Shown here: piece after piece, positions 691 through 60,640 of the stretch
Numbering within the stretch: position 1 is the stretch's first letter
Layout: each line of letters starts with the position of its first letter
Source of the DNA: Octopus sinensis
Lineage: Eukaryota
Direction of reading: 5' to 3'
Assembly (NCBI RefSeq): GCF_006345805.1
Contig: NC_042998.1
Location: 29,264,001-29,328,000 of the forward strand
DNA: 64,000 nt
Notes under the pieces: model-generated
The model's database searches: none
Seen by the model: only the letters and a program-made list of their open reading frames with translations
Told to the model about the DNA's origin: nothing
Program-made: the position numbers and the translations under genes

Positions 691-1950
691 TATCAGGTCG
701 TCAAGTATGAGATTTGTAGAAAAACAGTTTGCCAATGTTTTATATATACAAGGAATAGTTTTATTTTTCAAAGCATGCTTTCATGTTGTCAATACAGTTT
801 TGCCATTTCAGCGGTAGCTTGTCCAACCCAGAACTGTAAAAGCCTGGCAATCTAGAGTCAATAAAATCTTGGAAGGCCTGTTTTACAGCATCGTCGGAAT
901 TATTTTTTTTCCTATAAAAACGTTATCGAAATTCTGGAAGAATTTTTATTCTATGGGGGCAAGATCAGGTGAGTATGGTGGATGACGGAGAGCTTCCAAC
1001 TCCAACCCCTGTAGTTTCGCCAATGTCCTTTTTGCGATGTATGGTCTAGCGTTGTTTGCAATGAAATAGGAGTAGATCTGTTGACTAATCTCGGCTGTCT
1101 TTTTGCAAGTTTCTGTATCATTTGGTCCAGTTGGCTGCAGTATACTTCGACCGTGATTTTTGGGCTAGGTTTAATGAACTCATAATGGGTCACACCTGCG
1201 CCAGACCACCAAACACCAACCATGAGCATGTTTTGATGAATTTTGCTTCTTGGACTGTATTTTGTTGGCTTGTCTTTGTCCAACTATTGTGCTGAACGTT
1301 TACGGTTGTTGTATTGGATCAATTTCTCATCACATGTTACAATTCGATTCAAAAATAATTCATTTTTGTGACGAGAAATGCAGGCTTTCAAACGTTGCTG
1401 TTTCTGATTTTCATTGAGTTCATGTGGAATCAATTTATCCAAGTTTTTCATTTTACCGATTTGAACTTGGTGAGTTAATATTGTTTGCTTGCTAACACCA
1501 CACAACAACGATAATTCACGGGCACTTTGAGATGGTTCTGACCGGACGATGAATCTCAGTTCGTTAGTATCCACCTTTGTTTTTGGTCGACAGCTTTGCT
1601 CATTTGTGAGATCCAAATTACCAGAACGAAGTTTTGCAAACCAATTTGCTGTGTAATAACATTAGAACGAAATATTCCATTAATATTCCGAGCTGTCTGT
1701 GATGCTGTATTTCCAAGAAAGAACTCCTATTTCAAAACTGTACGAATTTCTGACTTATCCATCTTTAAACAAAAATAGCAAAGAACGATTTATAGATATT
1801 TTACAAGGCGCAAAATGAGTTAGAATAAATAGATGTGTCAGCTTTCTAACAAAAAATAAATATTGCCAAAATATAATGATGGCGCAAAATGAGCAGCTGT
1901 CGAAGTTTATCATATACCTAACTACAAATTTCCTACTTGGCGACCTAATA
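691..1950 (-). mobile_element. Full-length degenerate mariner transposon (~1.26 kb)
   Basis: TIRs tcaggtcgtcaagtatgagatttgtag and revcomp ttaggtcgccaagtaggaaatttgtag (4 mismatches in 27) flanked by TA; encloses transposase pseudo-ORFs. Confidence 0.92.
860..1765 (-). pseudogene. Mariner transposase pseudogene (stops and frameshifts)
   Basis: ORFs 1284-1616 and 951-1283 contain LIPHEL (WVPHEL-like), IVTCDEK, MVGVWWS..GVTHYE and YCSQL motifs of mariner DD34D transposases. Confidence 0.9.
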
Positions 1951-5095: not shown

Positions 5096-6024
5096 TGAGC
5101 ATAATATGCTTGCATATGTATACCTATGGTTAAACATAGATGATATACCGGCAGTGTAATGGATACTCCTATCCCTTAGGCGGTTACTTTAACCTCTTAC
5201 TCAGCTAACCTTATATATATTAGCGATATGATTAGTGACATAATTATTTTATCACATAAGGAGAAAATACGGAAATCTTGATGGAATCATATTATGACTA
5301 TACATATGGGATTAACTCTCACTTTCATATAAAAGATAGATAAAAGCTGCATGTTGTTCGACACGAAAATCATTTTCCCCACTAGATCATCCATGAGCAA
5401 AAGGGTTTACGTAGCGTCATTTGCTGACGCTGACACAAAAGCGAAATTCACTTTGACAAGATGCAATAGTAACATTGCGAATATAAAATACATTAGCAGA
5501 CAAAAGGTTGTCAATGATCAGATAATCGGTAATAAGAGTGATTAAAAATTAATTAAAGACGCGTTGAAATTGAAATCTCTTTTCCCTGCAGTCAGTAGAT
5601 CTGATAGGATGTGTGTTGGCAGCCAGTTGAGCGATATTAGATGTGTGCAATCACATATTAAGAATATTAGCGAAGTGAATTCTTTGATTAAGCAAAAAAT
5701 GAAAATCTCCTAAATGCTCGTATGGATATGTGACGTGACGTCTTCTAGTCGAAGAAACAGGAGGGAAATATCCTGCAGGTAAATAATTACACGATTACTC
5801 TCTATCTGAATCCCAAGGAAAGATCATTAAAGCAACACATAACGTCTTAATAGACTGCTCTTCCGGTGTGTCTTTGGTGATAACAATGATAACAGATATC
5901 GGATATCGTAATTTCTGCTGCAAATTTTACATCTGTTTATCCCGATAGAAATGCTTGTCTCTTGCTTATAAAATAGGGCTGGCACCAACTATAATCGCCT
6001 TTGTAATATCTAATGTTTATAGAA

Positions 6025-6332
6025 GGCGGCGAGCTGGCAGAAACGTTAGCACGCCGGGTGAAATGCTTAACGGTATTTCGTCTGCCTTTACGTTCTGAGT
6101 TCAAATTCCGCCGAGGTTGACTGTACCTTTCATCCTTTCGGGGCCGATAAATTAAGTACCAGTTACGCACTAGGGGCGGGGTAGATATAATCGACTTAAT
6201 TCGTTTGTCTGTCCTTGTTTGCCCTCTCTATGTTTAGCCCCTTGTGAGCAATAAAGAAATAAGAAACGTTAGCACGCCGGGCGAAATGTTTAGCGGTATG
6301 TCATCCGTCTTTACGTTTTGAGTTCAAATTCC
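6025..6332 (+). mobile_element. SINE family A copy followed by a partial second head
   Basis: ggcggcgagctggcagaaacg..gagttcaaattc..cctttcatcctttcgggg..agccccttgtg consensus repeated throughout the window. Confidence 0.9.
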
Positions 6333-8195: not shown

Positions 8196-8633
8196 TATAT
8201 ATACTGCTTGAAACATCAAGTGTAGCCCGTTGCCTATGTATAGTTGATTGCTCCTTTTCTATGCTGTTTCTTTGCTCTATATAAAATTCTATGAAATTTA
8301 TCTACAACTTCACTCGGCACTTTCCCCAGTTTCAACATTTATGTGAGATTCTACTACATATATTACATTTACTTCGTGAATGTGTGTATGTATGTATATA
8401 TATATATATGTGTGTATGTGTGTGTGTGTGTGTGTACATATTCTTTTATTCTTTTACTTGTTTCTGTCATTTGACTGTGGCCATGCTGGAGCACCGCCTC
8501 TAGTCGAACAAATCGATCCAAGGACATTCTTTCTAAGCCTATTACTCATTTTATCTGCCGAACTGCTAAGTTACAGGGACATAAGCACACCAACATCGGT
8601 TGTCAAGCGGTGGTGTGGGGACAAACACAGAAC

Positions 8634-8676
<43 letters not shown>

Positions 8677-8706
8677 CGGTGGTGTGGGGACAAACACAGA
8701 ACACAA

Positions 8707-8740
<34 letters not shown>

Positions 8741-8942
8741 GATATATTGTGTTCTGTGTTTGTCCCCACACCACCGCTTGACAACCGATGTTGGTGTGCT
8801 TATGTCCTGTAACTTAGCAGTTCGGCAGATAAAATGAGTAATAGGCTTAGAAAGAATGTCCTTGGATCGATTTGTTCGACTAGAGGCGGTGCTACAGCAT
8901 GGCCACAGTCAACTGACAGAAACAAGTAAAAGAATAAAAGAA
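7992..8942 (+). mobile_element. SINE family B (internal TA/TG microsatellite) interrupted by an inverted duplication
   Basis: 5' half 7992-8160 (gtggctgtgtgg..ggttcagtccc) and 3' half 8745-8942 (ggcggtgct.cagcatggcc..aacaagtaaaagaataaaag). Confidence 0.85.
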
Positions 8943-9163
8943 TATGTACACACACACACACATATATATATATACATACACACATTCACGAAGTAAATGT
9001 AATATATGTAGTAGAATCTCGCATAAATGTTGAAACTGGGGAAAGTGCCGAGTGAAATTGTAGATAAATTTCATAGAATTTTATATAGAGCAAAGAAACA
9101 GCATAGAAAAGGAACAATCAACTATACATAGGCAACGGGCTACACTTGATGTTTCAAGCAGTA
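8202..9163. repeat. Fold-back inverted duplication, arms 8202-8640 and 8745-9163
   Basis: Arms are near-perfect reverse complements with only a few substitutions; centre is (TA)n. Confidence 0.95.
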
Positions 9164-9684
9164 CATTCAAAGTGGATGGGAAATGTATAAATTCTAAGGC
9201 TTCTATGCATTGCTATGTAAACCAGTAAGTTTACAAACTCGAGTTAAAACCTTGCTTTTATTATATGTCCGAATTGAAATGCCTGATTGCTCCTTACTCA
9301 ATGTATGTTATTATTGTCTTAGCACACATTTAAGGAATATTGATTTGATATAAACTTCTGTATCAGGCATGCTAATTAAATTTAAGACTTCTAGCTTTAT
9401 TGTCACTTTTGTAACGGTAATAACTTATACATTATTCCTCTAATAAAGCCATAAACCATGGAAGCAAGATTTATAATCAGTGTATCGTCGGTTTCGCAGA
9501 TAATGTATCTCGGATGGCATTAGCCAACGTGTCCTTCCCTTTTTATGCTGGTAGGGTATAATTTGAAATGCTATTTGACTGCTATTTGTAGCAGATAGTG
9601 CATCTAAATAAAATCTTGTTTCGTAGGATTTCTGTGTGAGTGGAACGCCATTTACTCAAGACCTTAGCGTCTACACATCAGTAA

Positions 9685-24329: not shown

Positions 24330-24495
24330 ATACGATGGACTTCTTTCTGCTTACGTCTACCAAATCCACTCACAAGGCTTTGGGCGGCCCGAAGGTATAC
24401 TAGAAACACTTGCCCGAGGTGCCACTGAGTGGGACCGAATCTGGTTTTATGAGGTTTGGTTGGGAAGCAAACTTCTTACCACACTGTCACACCAC
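24060..24495 (-). mobile_element. SINE family B (diverged)
   Basis: Consensus match. Confidence 0.8.
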
Positions 24496-24564
24496 AGTGC
24501 AGCACACTTTTATAAGTTTAAGTTCTTCAATGTATTGTACAGAAAGACTTCAGCCATCCTCATT

Positions 24565-24815
24565 CCTCATCTCACAGAATAGTCTTAATGGTAAAAATTT
24601 CAATTCCGTGGGTGACGTAAAAAGATACCTTGATGAATTCTTTGCCATGAAACCTCCTCAATTCTGGGAAGAGGATATTTTCAAGTTAAAGGAAGATGGA
24701 GACGCATTGTGCAACAAAATGGTTCATATTTGGTTGGTTAAAATGTAATGGCAAGTATTTATTGACATTTTTCTTTCCTTTAAACATCGGTACGAACTTT
24801 CCGGACAACCGAATA
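24565..24815 (+). mobile_element. Mariner 3' fragment
   Basis: QNSLNGKNFNSVGDVKRYLDEFFAMKPPQFWEEDIFKL followed by TIR-like gaactttccggacaacc.aata. Confidence 0.8.
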
Positions 24816-24997
24816 CTAACAACAATGAAGGGGAGTTGTATATGATCGCTCTATCTGCTACGAATAGCAGTTAAATATTCTTCAAAGTACATTCTATTGC
24901 TTCAAAGTAGGAAGGACATATTTAAGAATATAACCCTACGTACACAAAAGAACGGGATGCTTAGAACTGGAAATGTCTTTGATCGTTGATCTCTTTG

Positions 24998-25097
24998 NNN
25001 NNNNNNNNNNNNNNNNNNNNNNNNNNNNNNNNNNNNNNNNNNNNNNNNNNNNNNNNNNNNNNNNNNNNNNNNNNNNNNNNNNNNNNNNNNNNNNNNN
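24998..25097. other. Assembly gap (100 N)
   Basis: N run. Confidence 1.
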
Positions 25098-25300
25098 GAA
25101 ATCTTGTTAAGGAGAGGGCCTTTGGCGAACAAGATCTCTAGGCTCTCCGAAATGCAAAGGTCAAAGCAGGTATGGCCTCCTGTGTACGAACGCGCCTTCT
25201 GTAGTAGTTTCCACTGGTCTTGAAAGGGATGGAGTTCCTTTTAAGGTACCATGTGGGGCGGCGAGGGTAGTTTGATGGATTTATCCGGTCGCCGGAACGA

Positions 25301-25798
25301 GTGTGTGTGTGTATGTATGTGTATGTGTGTATGTGTGTGTATGGGTATGTATGTGTATGTGTTGTATGTGTCTGTGTGGGTCGTGTGTGTGTATATATAC
25401 ATGTGTGTGTGTATATGTATGCATGCATATGTGTATGTATGTATATGTATATATAATAGATATATATATGTATGTAGATATATGTATGTATATGTGGTGT
25501 GTATATATATATATTATATGGGTGTGTGTGTATGTATGTGTATGTGTGTGTATGTGTGTGTATGTATTATGGTGTATGTGTGTGTATGTGTATGTGTGGG
25601 TCGTGTGTGTATATATACATGTGTGTGTGTGATATGTATATGCATGCATATGTGTATGTATGTATATGTATATATATATATATATATATAGTATGTAGAT
25701 ATATGTATGTATATGTGTGTGTGTATATATATATAATATATATATATATATTATGGGTTGTGTGTGTATGTATGTGTGTATGTATATTGTGTGTGTGT
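25301..25798. repeat. Compound TG/TA microsatellite with ~220 bp higher-order duplication
   Basis: gtgggtcgtgtgtgt..atgcatgcatatg occurs at ~25376 and ~25596. Confidence 0.8.
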
Positions 25799-26018
25799 TG
25801 AGAATTTCCTTATTTACCTAAAACTCTATTCTTCTTATATTTTTGTATTTTATTCTTTTTTTATTCTTTTATTTATTCTTCTATCTAATTTACCACTGAC
25901 TCCTTGACACCACTCCCCAAGTATGATTTTTTTGCGCTATGCCTACCCCCAAAAATTCCCCCACCACCACCCTAATAAACCTGCCTAAATGTATAAATGC
26001 AATAAATTCTTGTTAACT

Positions 26019-26069
26019 AGCTTCCTGAAGAGTTCTCTTGAATGAAACCGTTCTAGTCCTGTAGAAGCT
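26019..26069 (+). ncRNA. Type I hammerhead ribozyme motif
   Basis: agcttc-CTGAAGA-gttc(tctt)gaat-GAAAC-cgttctagtcct-GTA-gaagct; 6-bp stem I. Confidence 0.75.
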
Positions 26070-26157
26070 CCTTCTATATAATAAATTAATTTTACTCTGC
26101 TATGTATTAAGTACCTTATTTCTGTGGTTAACCCCGAATCACCCCGGGACTACATAT

Positions 26158-26226
<69 letters not shown>

Positions 26227-26743
26227 CTATATAGGGAGAGTTTACGAAAAAATAGAAGACGAAGACAGGTGGTGTACAAAAGAAGCAGATGTATTAGTAT
26301 AAAACGCTCAGGAATAGAAAAAGTTTTTTACGCTTCGAGTCTACACTCTTCTACAACAGAAGGGACACAGAAAAAAACAAGGAGATAAACAAGGAGAGAA
26401 AAAATGTGTGTAGTGGCTAACGATCTATCATGGATCTCTGTATAATAGATATATAATATAGTGTATATATATATATATAGATATATATATATATATTATA
26501 AATATTAGGGATAAATCCAAATTTACAGGGAAAAAATCAGATTTAGGATTAAATCCAATTTAATAGTAAAATATTATATAATATATTAGAGACAAAACCA
26601 CTATTTTGCAAAACAAACAAGGAAAGAACTTAATCAATACATAAAATTTTATGTATTGATAAGTCTTTCCTTGTTTGTTTTGCAAAATAGTGGTTTTGTC
26701 TCTAATAATATTATATATATATAATATATTTATTATATAGAAG

Positions 26744-26793
26744 AGCTTCTACAGGACTAGAACTGTTTCATTCAGAGAAATCTTCAGGAAGCT
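26744..26793 (-). ncRNA. Type I hammerhead ribozyme motif (inverted copy)
   Basis: Reverse complement of the 26976-27026 motif, 1 nt shorter in loop II. Confidence 0.72.
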
Positions 26794-26975
26794 AGTTAAC
26801 AAGAATTGTATTGGCATTTATACATTTAGGCAGGTTTAAAGGGGTTTGGTGGGGGATTTTTGGGGTAGGCAAGCGCAAAAAATCATACTTGCGCTAGCCT
26901 ACCCCCAAAAAGTCCCCCACCAACACCCCTTTAAACCTGCCTAAAGTATAAATGCCAATACAATTCTTGTTAACT

Positions 26976-27026
26976 AGCTTCCTGAAGATTTCTCTTGAAT
27001 GAAACAGTTCTAGTCCTGTAGAAGCT
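26976..27026 (+). ncRNA. Type I hammerhead ribozyme motif
   Basis: agcttc-CTGAAGA-tttc(tctt)gaat-GAAAC-ag(ttctagtc)ct-GTA-gaagct; stem III acag/ctgt. Confidence 0.78.
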
Positions 27027-27108
27027 CCTTCTATAATAAATTAATTTTACTCTGCTATGTATGAGTACCTTATTACTGTGGTTAACCCCGAATCAACCCG
27101 GGACCTAC

Positions 27109-27151
<43 letters not shown>

Positions 27152-27458
27152 AAATACATACATTCATACTTACACACACACACCACAAACAAGTATTAAC
27201 ACATGTAAATATGAATGTATATATTTTGTCAAAATTTTAAAATGTTTAATTCTACAGATGCATATCTCTTTCTTTTCAGTGGAACTGCTATTTTATACAA
27301 ATTCCTTGAAATTATACCCCCCCACCTCACATGCACACAAACACATAATATATATTATGTGTGTGTGTGTATATATATACATATATATACGTATGTATTT
27401 AAGGATAATGTATCACGTCCAACTGAAGAGCAATTTTTTTGATCAAATTTTAACATGA

Positions 27459-27772
27459 ACTCGCAGTATCGCCCGGCGTTGCTTGGGCTTGCTTCCACCC
27501 TTTAGAATTGGAATTTTTGAAAAGTTAAAATTATGCATTATGTAGCTTGTTATTCTCTTTAAGTGAAGATTTTTCTGGTTGAAATACACCTAAAAATGGC
27601 GACACAGCAGTCAAAATCGAATTTTATCTTCTACGGAATGAAGAGCAAGCCTTCTTTTATCATACTCTCAATTTTGGTCAACTTGCGCCACTGGGTCTCG
27701 GATAAGATAGTGTTAGTTGAAGGCTACCAAACCTGCCATACACAGACAACTTCAGCTTTACATATAAAAAGA
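27459..27772 (-). mobile_element. Helitron H1, internally deleted
   Basis: Matches 21963-22331 with a central deletion. Confidence 0.8.
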
Positions 27773-34339: not shown

Positions 34340-34810
34340 AGACATATAACAAAACATACAAATCTGCATGTATACATACATACAAACATGCCCTATTGAT
34401 GTTGTTGAACTTCCAGTGAAGAAGTATTGAACCTAGGTGAGAAACCGGCTCTTTCTCTATTGGCAAGAAATCTTGAAATAAAAGAAAAAGAGGATATCTA
34501 TGGACAACCGCTTCGAAACCTCCAGCTCCTATATCCCGACTATGAATTCATATTCATACCAATAATAATTGGAATACTAGGTTTTGTTAGCAAATGCTTA
34601 AAGAATAATCTGGATAAACTGGGATTTTCAGAAAGAGAAATCGACCGGTTAATTCGTACATTACATGTGCAGTCTGTGAGTGAAACAGTAAAAATATGCA
34701 AGGCTTTTCTCAAGTTCGAAATATGAATTTGTCTCTGTTAACTACATCCCAAAGATGTATCTTTGTTGGAAACCGGTTCCCTCCTCAGTGGAAGATTTAT
34801 AATAATCAAA
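34340..34810 (+). mobile_element. R4/Dong-like (restriction-like endonuclease) non-LTR retrotransposon 3' fragment preceded by a 3' UTR copy
   Basis: KEKEDIYGQPLRNLQLLYPDYEFIFIPIIIGILGFVSKCL..LG..VQSVSETVKICKAFL is typical of the C-terminus of RLE-type ORFs; sits in ATAC repeats. Confidence 0.75.
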
Positions 34811-36550: not shown

Positions 36551-37157
36551 ATCTAGCACTTCACAAGTACTTTATTTTACCGTCCTGAGACGTATGACAA
36601 AACAATAATGATTTACAAGGAATTTGAACACTGAGTGTTATATAGCGTCATAAATGCTTGATTGGATATACTTTCTGCTATAGGCACAAATCCTAAAATT
36701 CTAGGTGGAGGTGGATAGTCGATTGCAGCGAACCAGCAAATTTCTTGTAATTATTTCATCCTCTTCAGAACGTAAAGAGAGACTAAACGCTGCTCAGCAT
36801 GTTGTCCTGGGTGCTAACTGTCCGGGGTGCTAAACGTCTTAAAATAAATCAAAAAGTATCGAAGAGAATTTTGTTTCTGTATAAATTCAAATATTAAGGT
36901 GGAAGCTAACAGAATCATTAGAACAACGGATAAAATACTTAACGGCATTTCGTCCGAAGTCGGCTTTACTTTCAATGCTTTCAAGGTTGATAAAATAACT
37001 ACCAGTAGAGCATTGGTGTCGAGGTAATCGACTTCTCCAACCCTCAAAATTGTTGGCCAAAATACAAAAAAAGAAGAAATACAAATCTTGGCATTCTTCT
37101 GTTTCCTTATATAATTACATAATGTATATATGTATATATATATATATATATATATAC

Positions 37158-37338
37158 TAGCGATTTTTTCCCCTGTCTTCCCTTCTCGGGATCTTTCCTT
37201 CTCCTATGTTTCCGACGAAGAGCTCCGCTCGAAACGTCAAACCCTCTTCTCTCCCTTCTTTCCTGAGCGTCCAATAATACTTTATTGTTCCACGTCCTTG
37301 CATTGTGTTTTTTTGTTTTTGTTTTTCTTTTTGGATTA

Positions 37339-37342
<4 letters not shown>
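37158..37342 (+). mobile_element. Penelope-like solo pLTR / retrozyme-like unit in (TA)n, with minimal hammerhead 37208-37242
   Basis: gttt-CCGACGA-a-gag(ctccg)ctc-GAAACGTC-aaac; minus-strand copy at 57556-57763; related units at 26233-26432 and 60090-60285. Confidence 0.72.
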
Positions 37343-37380
<38 letters not shown>

Positions 37381-41098: not shown

Positions 41099-41138
<40 letters not shown>

Positions 41139-41139
41139 A

Positions 41140-41468
41140 TAAATATTAGGGAATAATCCAATTTACAGGGAAAAAATCAGATTTAGGATTAAATCCAATT
41201 TTATAGTAAAATATTATATATTAATTCGAGACAAAACCACTATTTTGCAAAACAACAAGGAAAGACTTAATCAATACATAAAAATTTTAATATAAATAAA
41301 TTAATAAACAAATAATAATAAATAAATAATAAATAAATAAATAGAAATAAATAAATAAATAAATAAATAGAGAAATAAATATTTCTTTATATTAAAAATT
41401 TTTATGTATTGATTAAGTCTTTCCTTGTTTGTTTTGCAAAATAGTGGTTTTGTCTCGAATTAATTTTA
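41140..41468. mobile_element. Palindromic (TA)n-embedded element, same family as 26500-26712
   Basis: gagacaaaaccactattttgcaaaac..cataaaaatttt arm and its reverse complement around a TAAA-rich loop. Confidence 0.75.
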
Positions 41469-41484
41469 TATATATATATATATT

Positions 41485-41915
41485 TCAACAATTGAGGGTA
41501 AAATTAATTAGTTATTAATCAATTTCACCAAGTATTCAGTATGTAAAGGGACCATTTAAGGCGAATTGAAAATATTACATTGTATAAAAGGGGTTAGTAA
41601 AATAAATTACTTTGCCACATACTGAACTCATTAGAAATAGCAGCCCCAAAAAATTTTTTTTAGCCATTTCTAATACTTAAAGAAAATTTCTCTCAGATAG
41701 TGTTTACTCAAAATAACCCATGAAGGTATGGGGGTAAAAACATTAAAAAATCACAAGTGCAAAGATTATTTGAGAACGCACGTTTCTAGATCAGCCAAAT
41801 ACAATTCGACATTTCTTTCGTCAGCCCAAAATTTCTAATTCGGATTTGGCTGCTATTTCTAATGAGTTCAGTATGTGGCAAAGTAATTTATTTTACTAAG
41901 CCCTTTTATACAATA
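41485..41915. mobile_element. Palindromic (TA)n-embedded element, same family as 62982-63163
   Basis: Arms 41580-41646 / 41848-41914. Confidence 0.75.
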
Positions 41916-56871: not shown

Positions 56872-57251
56872 AAATGTTCCAGCTGCGGTCATGCTGGAGC
56901 ACCACCATTTACTGAGCTACACCATTATTTGGAACCTCCTCTAATATGTGGCATTTGGTCAATGAGGGAGTTTGATGCTGCTGCTCTCGTTTGTGTTTCC
57001 TGTCGTGAGGTAAGGCTAGTCTGGAACCCGTAACAGGAAGAGATCCTGTTTTGTTTTAAAGACACTTATGTCCACACCATGCTGGTCTCTCAAGCATTTT
57101 GGAAGGATATTAAAGAGCTGTGAGCCCTTGAAGCCCAAGCTGTTGCAGTATCTGGTCTTGTATTTTGATGGCGAGGCTGGGATCCTTGGTACTATGCAAT
57201 AGCGCCCCGTTCTGCAGTTTGAATAACTTTCAATGCCAAAGTTTGGCACAG
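56872..57251 (-). mobile_element. CR1-type LINE 3' fragment (ORF2 C-terminus plus 3' tail)
   Basis: RTGRYC..YCNSLGFKGSQLFNILPKCLRD..VFKTKQDLFLLRVPD; tail ggtggtgctccagcatgaccgcag. Confidence 0.85.
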
Positions 57252-57518
57252 GTAGTAAAGAAGTCGAAGAACAAAGGAGAGTGGTGGCGAAACAGGATTA
57301 GGTAGATGGGCAGAGAAATGGAAAGCGTTAATGTTTATAACATTTCGGATGTTGTTCTTTTACGGAGTAGAATATAGACTGGAGAATGAGGAAGAAATAC
57401 AAGGATGAAAAAAACTTGGAAAAGAAATGGCGAAAATATGTGCGCAATTGGTCGATGTGATGGCCGTTAACTATTTGGAAGTCGGTTGCTGAGCGAGGAT
57501 TCATTGCTTTGTACGTGA

Positions 57519-57555
<37 letters not shown>

Positions 57556-57559
<4 letters not shown>

Positions 57560-57755
57560 ATCCAAACAAGAAAGCACAAAAAAATACAACAACGCGAGGT
57601 CGTGGAACAAATATAGAATTATTTGACGCTCAGGAAAGAAGGAAAGAAGGAGAGTTTAACGTTTCGAGCGGAGCTCTTCGTCGGAAACACAGGAGAAGGA
57701 AAGATCCAGAGAAGGGAAGGCAGAGGAAAAAAATCGCCAACGGTACACACGTGGT

Positions 57756-59975: not shown

Positions 59976-60089
<114 letters not shown>

Positions 60090-60640
60090 GGCCTGTGCCT
60101 GCTAAATCCACAAGTTTTTTTTTAATTCTCTGTCTGTTTATTTTCTCTTATTCCTTTTGCTGAAGAGCGCAGGCTCGAAACGTTAGACCATCTTTCTTTC
60201 CTTCCTTGACCGTCTGCTAATAGTTTACATGTACCACATCCTCACGTTGTTGTGTTTTTTGGTGTTTCTTCTTCTTTTGGGGGATTTACTCTGTGTGTGT
60301 GTGTGTGTGTATGTGGTGTGTGTGTGTGAGTGTGTGTGTGTGTGTAGGCACAGACCTATAAGCAACCACCTACAGGCAAATAACGACATCTTTTATAATC
60401 GAAACAAGCGAAACCAACTTTAGTGTGCGAGGTACCTTTTAGAAACTCACATAACGAGACACATCTGCACCTAAGGATCCACCATAACTAGTTGCATAGT
60501 ATCTCACTTCCGAGGGAGAGATGCAAGATGGGTCGAAACGATCGTTGTGATTAACAATGAATAAAGATTAACAAAGAATTCCATTTTCCATTTATCTCAT
60601 AAGTTATGTATGTATGTATGTATGTATGTATGTATGTATG

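What the first reader, a model, noticed from the sequence alone, without database searches (positions are those of the whole stretch)
25916..27110. Three intact-looking hammerhead ribozymes in direct and inverted pLTR-like repeats
Each copy has a full CUGAAGA/GAAAC/GUA core, a 6-bp stem I and (in two copies) a 4-bp stem III. Two copies form a ~310 bp palindrome centred at ~26883. Established: Penelope-like elements carry HHR-containing pseudo-LTRs, often inverted. Inference: a + strand transcript cut after 26063 and 27020 would release a ~960 nt non-coding unit, a retrozyme-like architecture.
Basis: partly seen in the sequence, partly recalled or inferred. Interest (0 to 1): 0.7.

Follow-up and report, generated by a model that had tools for sequence, protein, structure and literature searches.

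The report
Hydra-clade Penelope retrotransposon ends with hammerheads
Three hammerhead-ribozyme motifs sit in short direct and inverted repeats that match the 3' ends of Hydra-clade Penelope-like retrotransposons and were likely inserted piecemeal into a TA-repeat tract: a known kind of transposon debris in which the proposed 960-base retrozyme is predicted not to form, although a conserved hairpin marking where copies end may be undescribed.

Summary
In detail: three type I hammerhead motifs (two +, one -) and a 314-bp palindrome centred at 26883. A covariance model built only from 11 hammerheads downstream of Hydra-clade Penelope-like element (PLE) ORFs in other loci picks out exactly these three (E 2e-6, 2e-5, 2e-3; next 2.1). 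The U·U at the base of helix II is common in that clade. Both + copies carry a downstream hairpin shared with nine related families. The inverted arm stops 7 nt before it; short-ended relatives stop 1-6 nt before theirs (6 of 7 pairs). A Hydra-type GIY-YIG fragment lies about 600 bp away, and identical head-to-head palindromes occur in locus L005. So these are 5'-truncated Hydra-clade PLE ends in (TA)n, a described architecture. The retrozyme reading is not supported: the 957-nt interval is a patchwork of microsatellites and two unrelated repeats, and the second ribozyme is predicted to be buried in the palindrome. Copy differences are indel-dominated, probably read errors, so per-copy intactness is uncertain. 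Cleavage is untested. Modest new points: the covarying tail hairpin and an 8-nt self-complementary loop III.

The parts
25098..25300 (-). 5'-truncated, frameshifted C-terminal piece of a Hydra-type PLE GIY-YIG endonuclease that runs into the 100-N gap (24998-25097); same clade as the repeats, same family not shown
   Evidence: phmmer hit P0002 E 7.9e-4, 54%; tblastn E 2e-9; profile of 12 homologues iE 2.4e-6, the only hit in six frames; homologues are RT + C-terminal EN proteins, several with the RWK, DKT and CxCX5C motifs that define Hydra
25301..25800 (.). Compound (TG/TA)n microsatellite, internally duplicated and error-rich
25801..26150 (+). Copy 1: T-rich region (likely 3' UTR), hammerhead, tail hairpin, long end joined to (TA)n
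   Evidence: homology to the other copies starts at 25918; the UTR assignment of 25801-25917 is inferred
26019..26069 (+). Hammerhead 1 (helix I to helix I); predicted cut after 26063; G·U at base of helix II; mismatch in helix III
   Evidence: model R1 22 bits, E 1.9e-3
26094..26114 (+). Tail hairpin of copy 1 (2-nt bulge as in relatives; one outer pair broken)
26236..26435 (-). Fragment B: end of an unrelated repeat family with a degenerate minimal-hammerhead-like core; relatives at ~37150, ~57524 and ~60060
26464..26722 (.). Element C: a second palindrome with a one-sided extension, both ends in TA; second copy at 41104-41485 with a different turn-round point; no hammerhead found
26728..26891 (-). 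Copy 3: inverted arm, short-ended; stops 7 nt before the tail hairpin and joins a TA tract
26744..26793 (-). Hammerhead 3; predicted cut after 26750 on the - strand
   Evidence: model R1 28.9 bits, E 2e-5
26879..26891 (.). Palindrome centre: 10-nt loop and 3-nt microhomology where the arms meet; the sequence is element-derived (present in copy 1)
26889..27105 (+). Copy 2: direct arm with hammerhead, tail and long end joined to (TA)n at 27106-27160
26976..27026 (+). Hammerhead 2; site after 27020; U·U at base of helix II; 4-bp helix III with 8-nt loop; predicted to be sequestered by copy 3 in a + transcript
   Evidence: model R1 32.1 bits, E 2.4e-6
27042..27105 (+). 64-nt tail present in copies 1 and 2 and absent from copy 3; holds the conserved hairpin at 27049-27068

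Best explanation
The three repeats match the hammerhead-bearing 3' ends of Hydra-clade Penelope-like retrotransposons and are likely 5'-truncated products of two insertions of one family into a (TA)n tract that also holds pieces of other repeats. Inferred mechanism: the element's GIY-YIG endonuclease cuts the TA repeat. Its reverse transcriptase starts copying the element RNA at one of two sites, the far 3' end (long end) or just 5' of a conserved hairpin (short end), and stops early. Copy 1 is one such product. Copies 2 and 3 are likely a single event in which both target strands were primed, one at each site, and the two cDNAs joined through a 3-nt microhomology; a fold-back of one cDNA gives the same product. 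In the parent element the hammerhead would cut tandem precursor RNA, probably as a dimer or with protein help. Here the pieces are likely inert. A read-through transcript is predicted to form a ~155-bp hairpin that hides ribozymes 2 and 3, so the locus is predicted to yield double-stranded RNA and not a 957-nt unit. Shown: motifs, layout, end positions, clade-level match. Inferred: insertion mechanism, number of events, inertness. Untested: cleavage and transcription.
For: (1) Model R1 was built from 11 hammerheads next to Hydra-type ORFs, with no window sequence. It finds the 3 copies at E 2.4e-6, 2e-5 and 1.9e-3; the next of 13 matches is at E 2.1 (short calibration). (2) U·U at the base of helix II occurs in 4 of those 11 and in 14 of 26 Hydra rows of File S2 of PMC8557442 (counted by eye). 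L006 has nearly the same core. (3) A hairpin RCTC-stem-loop-stem-TT-GAGY-RC lies 40-61 nt past the cut in 9 long-ended families and 28 nt past it in copy 2. 60 of 63 cells pair; the inner three pairs pair in 25 of 27 cells against a shuffled mean of 16 (0 of 5000 shuffles as high). The window copies change the first pair from G-C to A-U. (4) Short-ended copies stop 1-6 nt before that hairpin in 6 of 7 long/short pairs; copy 3 stops 7 nt before it. (5) L005 holds two head-to-head hammerhead palindromes with one long and one short end, 5097-5313 and 5786-6131, with ends of different families stacked in (TA)n. 4 of 5 inverted pairs in relatives are long+short; one is short+short. (6) A Hydra-type endonuclease fragment lies at 25098-25300. 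(7) Literature: adjacent inverted 5'-truncated copies, one-sided tails, (TA)n targets and hammerheads in the Hydra clade (PMC8557442); both-strand cleavage and extension with two initiation sites that define the tail in a Poseidon PLE (PMC11167929); insertion next to earlier PLE copies (PMC6765202).
Against: No RT or full ORF of this family is in the window. The endonuclease piece is on the other strand, 500 bp of microsatellite away, so its link to the repeats is unproven; a search for closer proteins found none among 3 candidates. Loop III is 8 nt, against 1-2 nt in the 11 model sequences and 1-3 nt in 26 of 26 File S2 Hydra rows. The 64-nt tail is longer than the 30-40 bp in the literature. 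One of 7 long/short pairs (L006) parts 29 nt before the hairpin. The hairpin is the minimum-energy fold in 7 of 9 relatives and in copy 2, but not in L004, L006 or copy 1. My hairpin pattern was written after seeing these loci, and the loci's hammerheads were picked for paired helices I and III. A sequence-only profile gave weak hits (E 0.018 and 0.088, and none for copy 3). Copy differences look like read errors, so base-level detail is uncertain.
Confidence: 0.8

Rival explanations
1. The mobile unit is the 235-350-bp repeat itself: a non-autonomous, retrozyme-monomer-like family derived from a Hydra PLE end and moved in trans by PLE proteins.
For: The unit size and canonical helix sizes (6 and 4 bp) fit metazoan non-LTR retrozyme monomers of 150-450 bp. 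A preprint derives such retrozymes from PLE pLTRs and finds solo monomers. No ORF is attached to any copy here.
Against: There is no head-to-tail array: the copies are separated by unrelated repeats or are inverted. The 5' ends differ (about 25801; 26891 and 26889, equivalent to ~25918 and ~25932), as expected of random 5' truncation. In relatives the same hammerhead lies 86-202 nt downstream of an ORF end (11 ORF ends).
Confidence: 0.1
2. Part of the layout (the palindrome, or copy 1 versus copy 2) is an assembly or long-read artefact next to the gap.
For: Copies 2 and 3 differ by 1 substitution and 7 indel events, against 217 substitutions and 11 indels in 9 dispersed repeat pairs of the window (Fisher p 3e-8). 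The locus abuts a 100-N gap. The neighbouring microsatellite is duplicated, the endonuclease piece changes frame three times, and a ~970-bp palindrome of non-PLE sequence centred on a TA tract lies at 8199-9166.
Against: A fold-back read would not be expected to stop 7 nt before a clade-conserved hairpin, where natural short ends stop. The centre is element sequence and not a TA run. The same layout occurs in L005, where the arms of 5097-5313 differ by 7 mismatches and 0 gaps. Copies 1 and 2 have different flanks on both sides, and copies 2 and 3 share states that copy 1 lacks.
Confidence: 0.07
3. One reading: a + transcript is cut after 26063 and 27020, and releases a ~960-nt non-coding RNA that circularises and is mobilised as a retrozyme.
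For: Two same-strand hammerheads lie 957 nt apart in direct repeats. Retrozyme consensus lengths up to 972 bp are reported. An axolotl retrozyme hammerhead with U·U at the base of helix II cleaves.
Against: The interval is a patchwork with independently located relatives. Ribozyme 2 is predicted to be fully paired to the antisense arm: -259.9 kcal/mol for the 396-nt stretch, helix probabilities 0.00. Ribozyme 1 has a helix III mismatch as assembled, and a downstream 8-bp hairpin drops P(helix I) from 0.2-0.3 to <=0.02 once 14 nt past the site are made. There is no second copy of the unit in the window.
Confidence: 0.03

Closest known systems
Hydra-clade Penelope-like elements (Craig et al. 2021, PMC8557442), e.g. 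Penelope-13_HM, Hydra-1_Obim
   Same: Type I hammerhead near the 3' end, often with U·U at the base of helix II and an ACAG/CUGU helix III; (TA)n target; adjacent inverted 5'-truncated copy; one-sided tail; nearby endonuclease piece of Hydra type.
   Different: 8-nt loop III (1-3 nt in listed members); 64-nt tail; no ORF attached. The hammerhead of Hydra-1_Obim is a different sequence (by eye), and a 10-nt motif of this ribozyme was not found in that supplement, so this is another family.
Poseidon PLE of Anolis (PAc; Frangieh et al. 2024, PMC11167929)
   Same: Two 3' end positions that bracket a tail, a stem-loop at the initiation region, an AT-rich target, extension of both strands, and a ribozyme that needs protein. 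The works-like comparison is inferred.
   Different: Different clade. PAc initiation lies inside the start of the ORF in an AC-rich stem-loop; here the hairpin is non-coding as far as seen and has a different consensus.
Metazoan non-LTR retrozymes (Cervera and de la Pena 2020, PMC7229834; bioRxiv 10.64898/2026.07.22.740005)
   Same: Type I hammerhead with 6-bp helix I in a low-GC repeat of a few hundred bases; PLE-related origin.
   Different: No head-to-tail array; one copy inverted; variable 5' ends; no extended helix I formed when the core was forced.
Plant LTR retrozymes
   Same: Two same-strand hammerheads in direct repeats several hundred bases apart with no ORF between.
   Different: Those have type III hammerheads, GC above 55% and 4-bp target duplications. 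Here: type I, GC about 31%, microsatellite flanks and a patchwork interior.

Membership tests
Type I hammerhead ribozyme | Conserved core CUGANGA, GAAA, UH in type I order | tested here: met
   3 of 3 copies
Type I hammerhead ribozyme | Three helices can form | tested here: met
   39 of 42 cells paired; not the minimum-energy fold
Type I hammerhead ribozyme | Covariation among copies | tested here: inconclusive
   0 compensatory changes among 3 near-identical copies; 9 of 13 pairs covary in 11 clade relatives, which were selected for helices I and III
Type I hammerhead ribozyme | Match to an Rfam hammerhead family | tested here: not met
   0 matches at gathering; none among 70 at E<=10
Type I hammerhead ribozyme | Self-cleavage | not testable with these tools
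   Needs an in vitro assay
Hydra-clade PLE 3' end | Hammerhead of the clade's type near the 3' end | tested here: met
   Independent model R1 finds the 3 copies and nothing else below E 2; loop III is longer than in listed members
Hydra-clade PLE 3' end | Insertion into (TA)n | tested here: met
   All three 3' ends join TA tracts
Hydra-clade PLE 3' end | Inverted 5'-truncated copy adjacent; tail at one end only | tested here: met
   Copies 3 and 2; feature described in PMC8557442
Hydra-clade PLE 3' end | Upstream single ORF with RT and C-terminal GIY-YIG (RWK, DKT, CxCX5C, no CCHH) | tested here: inconclusive
   Only an endonuclease C-terminal piece nearby, on the other strand; the motifs are seen in its homologues, not in the window; physical link not shown
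Non-LTR retrozyme | At least two head-to-tail units, each with a hammerhead | tested here: not met
   No tandem repeat longer than 43 bp in 24800-27500; interval is a patchwork
Non-LTR retrozyme | Linear and circular monomer RNAs accumulate | not testable with these tools
   No RNA data
Plant-type LTR retrozyme | Type III hammerheads in LTRs | tested here: not met
   Type I
Plant-type LTR retrozyme | PBS, PPT and 4-bp target duplication | not tested
   No dedicated search; microsatellite flanks hide target duplications

The most novel reading that the evidence does not exclude
The bulged tail hairpin, conserved with compensatory changes in nine Hydra-type families and in this one, is the RNA element that docks the Hydra-clade reverse transcriptase. 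A protein dimer primes both target strands from two sites that bracket the hairpin, which makes head-to-head palindromes with one long and one short end in one step. This family has also swapped the clade's 1-3-nt loop III for an 8-nt self-complementary loop that favours a dimer (-12.8 against -1.4 kcal/mol), and has a downstream anti-ribozyme hairpin, so cleavage is switched. I did not find this hairpin in print: searches, and 0 uses of hairpin or stem-loop in the main text of PMC8557442. Subscription papers and Repbase reports were not searchable.
Probability: 0.4. Interest if true: 0.5.

Novelty: new member of a known kind. Interest (0 to 1): 0.3.

Why it matters
As a locus it matters little: truncated PLE ends with hammerheads, direct and inverted, are numerous in animal genomes and the architecture is published. 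The useful by-product is comparative. A sequence-defined hairpin predicts where Hydra-clade copies end, and 4 of 5 inverted pairs in relatives, plus this one, join one long end with one short end. That makes the open question of how PLE tails and inverted pLTRs arise testable in a second clade, with a named RNA element to mutate. It is also a caution: two same-strand hammerheads about 1 kb apart in a microsatellite-rich genome can be independent insertions and not a retrozyme.

Tried and rejected
Rfam: no hammerhead family; the top matches are miRNA hairpin models on the palindromes, all below gathering score. Pfam gave nothing on the 47-aa endonuclease piece or on P0002, and a sub-cutoff GIY-YIG match on 2 of 7 homologues. 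ESM Atlas gave no usable hit. A word-based protein search with the 47-aa piece found 3 candidates, none scoring, so no close relative was available to link the endonuclease piece to the repeats. An exact ribozyme pattern in GTDB genomes gave 0 matches. Copy 1 against phages gave one 31-nt match, treated as chance. Plasmid and E. coli collections were not searched; the viral and metagenome contig collections stayed unchecked. No eukaryotic genome collection was on hand, so genome-wide copy number is unchecked. An extended helix I with loop-loop contacts did not form when the core was forced. I first read the U·U pair as damage and rejected that. Identity with Hydra-1_Obim was rejected by eye. 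Two short motifs (ribozyme, element C) were absent from the supplement of PMC8557442 (line breaks could hide a match). The idea that 25801 is the last codons of the ORF rests on a 3-residue likeness and is not counted. From the hammerheads found, I left out of the model the cores of other types (L005 7423 and 6326; L010 341 and 4206; L011 2061) and duplicate copies of a family. L012-L014 lack the ORF end. L001 is cut by its contig end. L009 was found only by the model and has a variant hairpin. No structure or complex prediction was run. The supplements of the bioRxiv preprint were not seen and may list related families. Lunse et al. (PMC5785218) was seen only as a citation.

Full report
Context. 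The window is AT-rich, microsatellite-dense animal-type DNA full of dispersed repeats, with a mariner-type transposase fragment and one 100-N gap at 24998-25097. From recall, not from any call, its SINE-like repeats resemble those of octopus genomes; the host was not identified by a tool.

Observation. A type I descriptor finds cores at 26025 (+), 26982 (+) and 26787 (-), each with a 6-bp helix I; the cleavage nucleotides are 26063, 27020 and 26750. The same loose scan found three more cores (37659, 44232, 41824) without helix II. 200 shuffles gave a mean of 0.145 cores with helix I >=5 bp and 0.05 with >=6 bp. Helix III has 4 bp and an 8-nt loop in copies 2 and 3, and is mismatched in copy 1. 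Helix II has G·U at its base in copy 1 and U·U in copies 2 and 3. Copies 3 and 2 form a 314-bp palindrome (26728-27041) with a 10-nt loop at 26879-26888. Rfam has no hammerhead match here, and the three copies are too alike to show covariation.

What the repeats belong to. The minus strand at 25098-25300 encodes a frameshifted piece that matches the C-terminus of a GIY-YIG protein (P0002, E 7.9e-4; tblastn E 2e-9). Its 11 longer homologues are RT + C-terminal endonuclease proteins. The 5 I read carry, in most cases, the RWK, DKT and CxCX5C motifs that PMC8557442 section 11 gives for the Hydra clade. A profile of the 12 proteins hits only this place in six frames. File S2 of that paper lists 26 Hydra hammerhead rows. 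By eye, 14 have U·U at the base of helix II and all have a 1-3-nt loop III; File S1 gives (TA)n as the target of nearly all families, notes a 5'-truncated inverted copy in Penelope-13_HM, and lists an Octopus family whose ribozyme differs from this one. A scan of GTDB genomes with an alignment of 11 homologues returned 14 loci; their microsatellites and PLE content suggest animal DNA inside bacterial bins (inference). Eleven have the endonuclease end. Ten of these have a full hammerhead downstream, and L001 has a partial one at its contig end; distances are 86-202 nt. A covariance model built from 11 of these hammerheads (9 of 13 pairs with double changes, with selection bias on helices I and III) finds the three window copies at E 2.4e-6, 2e-5 and 1.9e-3; the next of 13 matches is at 2.1. 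A sequence-only profile was weak (E 0.018 and 0.088, none for copy 3).

End anatomy. Nine related families with a long 3' end carry a hairpin, RCTC-stem-loop-stem-TT-GAGY-RC in its common form, 40-61 nt past the cleavage site. 60 of 63 cells pair, and the variable inner pairs pair in 25 of 27 cells (shuffled mean 16; 0 of 5000 as high). Copies 1 and 2 have it at 26094 and 27049 with the first pair changed to A-U. Copy 1 keeps the 2-nt bulge but breaks one pair; copy 2 keeps the pairs and has a 1-nt bulge. The pattern occurs 5 times in the window on both strands, so it is rare, but I wrote it after seeing the loci. In 6 of 7 long/short pairs of relatives the short copy stops 1-6 nt before the hairpin and enters a TA-type repeat; L006 parts at 29 nt. 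Copy 3 stops 7 nt before it. L005 holds two head-to-head palindromes of just this kind, and ends of several families stacked in (TA)n. Four of five inverted pairs in relatives are long+short; one is short+short. PMC8557442 describes adjacent inverted copies and a one-sided 30-40-bp tail. PMC11167929 shows that a Poseidon protein cuts and extends both strands of AT-rich DNA and starts at two sites that define the tail, and that its hammerhead cleaves only with protein. From these I infer that copy 1 is one truncated insertion and that copies 2 and 3 are one two-strand event joined at a 3-nt microhomology (26889-26891), or a cDNA fold-back.

The retrozyme idea. The 957 nt between the + cuts comprise 87 nt of tail, 159 nt of TA/TG, fragment B (200 nt, aligning with a family at ~37150, ~57524 and ~60060), element C (218 nt, second copy at 41104-41485), the antisense arm (161 nt) and 132 nt of copy 2. 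There is no tandem array, which non-LTR retrozymes require, and the ribozymes are not type III. In a + transcript ribozyme 2 has helix probabilities of 0.00, and so has ribozyme 3 in a - transcript. This holds at all eight lengths tested during simulated elongation. Even alone, the hammerhead fold lies 1.2-5.9 kcal/mol above the best fold, and an 8-bp hairpin over the cleavage site lowers P(helix I) from 0.2-0.3 to <=0.02 by 14 nt past the site. These are thermodynamic predictions without tertiary contacts or protein. The helix III region of copies 2 and 3 pairs with itself as a dimer at -12.8 kcal/mol, against -1.4 as a hairpin, in line with dimer cleavage described for PLE hammerheads. In the preprint, 1 of 9 predicted retrozyme dimers cleaved in vitro, so a motif match does not imply activity.

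Sequence quality. Copies 2 and 3 differ by 1 substitution and 7 indel events; copies 1 and 2 by 10 and 6; copies 1 and 3 by 7 and 9. Nine dispersed repeat pairs in the window total 217 substitutions and 11 indels (Fisher p 3e-8, 2e-4 and 2e-7; the controls were chosen from BLAST hits, which favours ungapped stretches). The endonuclease piece changes frame three times. This points to uncorrected read errors on young, near-identical copies. It makes per-copy intactness uncertain, but it does not explain an inverted arm that stops at the clade's natural short-end position.

Papers seen. PMC8557442: passages, section 11, supplement parts 1, 2, 52 and 53, and term searches. PMC11167929: parts 1-2 of 4. 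PMC4209133: parts 1-2 of 4. PMC7229834: passages and section 13. bioRxiv 10.64898/2026.07.22.740005: parts 1-3 of 5, no supplements. PMC6962438, PMC13282606, PMC8969392 and PMC6765202: passages. PMC13282606 lists 31 recently active Penelope-like families in Octopus vulgaris.

Verdict. Real, but mostly ordinary: 3' ends of a family, not found among those listed in that supplement, of a described PLE clade, in a described arrangement. Confidence 0.8; the retrozyme unit 0.03. The conserved tail hairpin, which I did not find in print, and the 8-nt loop III are the points worth following. Interest 0.3.

Noticed in passing
window 25098-25300 (-): Hydra-type PLE GIY-YIG C-terminal fragment with three frame changes, running into the 100-N gap; the gap may hide an inverted 3' end of the same element.
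   Followed up: partly
window 26464-26722 and 41104-41485: A second palindromic element with a one-sided ~107-nt extension and TA at both ends; the two copies turn round at different points. Likely another PLE-type end; no hammerhead found by model R1.
   Followed up: partly
window 26236-26435 (-), 37150-37372 (+), 57524-57750 (-), 60060-60281 (+): A repeat family with minimal-hammerhead-like cores; two copies have CCGACGA in place of CUGANGA. Some end in (TA)n.
   Followed up: partly
window 47313 (+): Hammerhead-like core variant (CCGAAGA) with a 6-bp helix II, next to a SINE-like repeat.
   Followed up: no
window 8199-9166: ~970-bp palindrome of mixed unique and repeat sequence centred on a duplicated TA tract (92% arm identity); possibly an assembly artefact.
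   Followed up: partly
L001-L014 (GTDB MAG records): Bacterial MAG bins contain contigs with Hydra-type PLE ORFs, most with hammerheads and several with microsatellites; probably animal host DNA binned as bacterial.
   Followed up: partly
L005 4939-6131; L010 1790-8562: Ends of several Hydra-type families stacked in each other's (TA)n tails, including head-to-head hammerhead palindromes.
   Followed up: yes
window 26060-26078 and 27017-27033 (+): Predicted 8-bp hairpin over the cleavage site that outcompetes helix I once about 14 nt past the site are transcribed; not examined in relatives.
   Followed up: partly
window 951-1661, 24404-24748, 34409-34726, 57016-57297: Decayed transposon ORF pieces: mariner transposase (Pfam hit for 951-1283); the others look mariner-like or LINE-like from recall, with no informative Pfam hit.
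   Followed up: no
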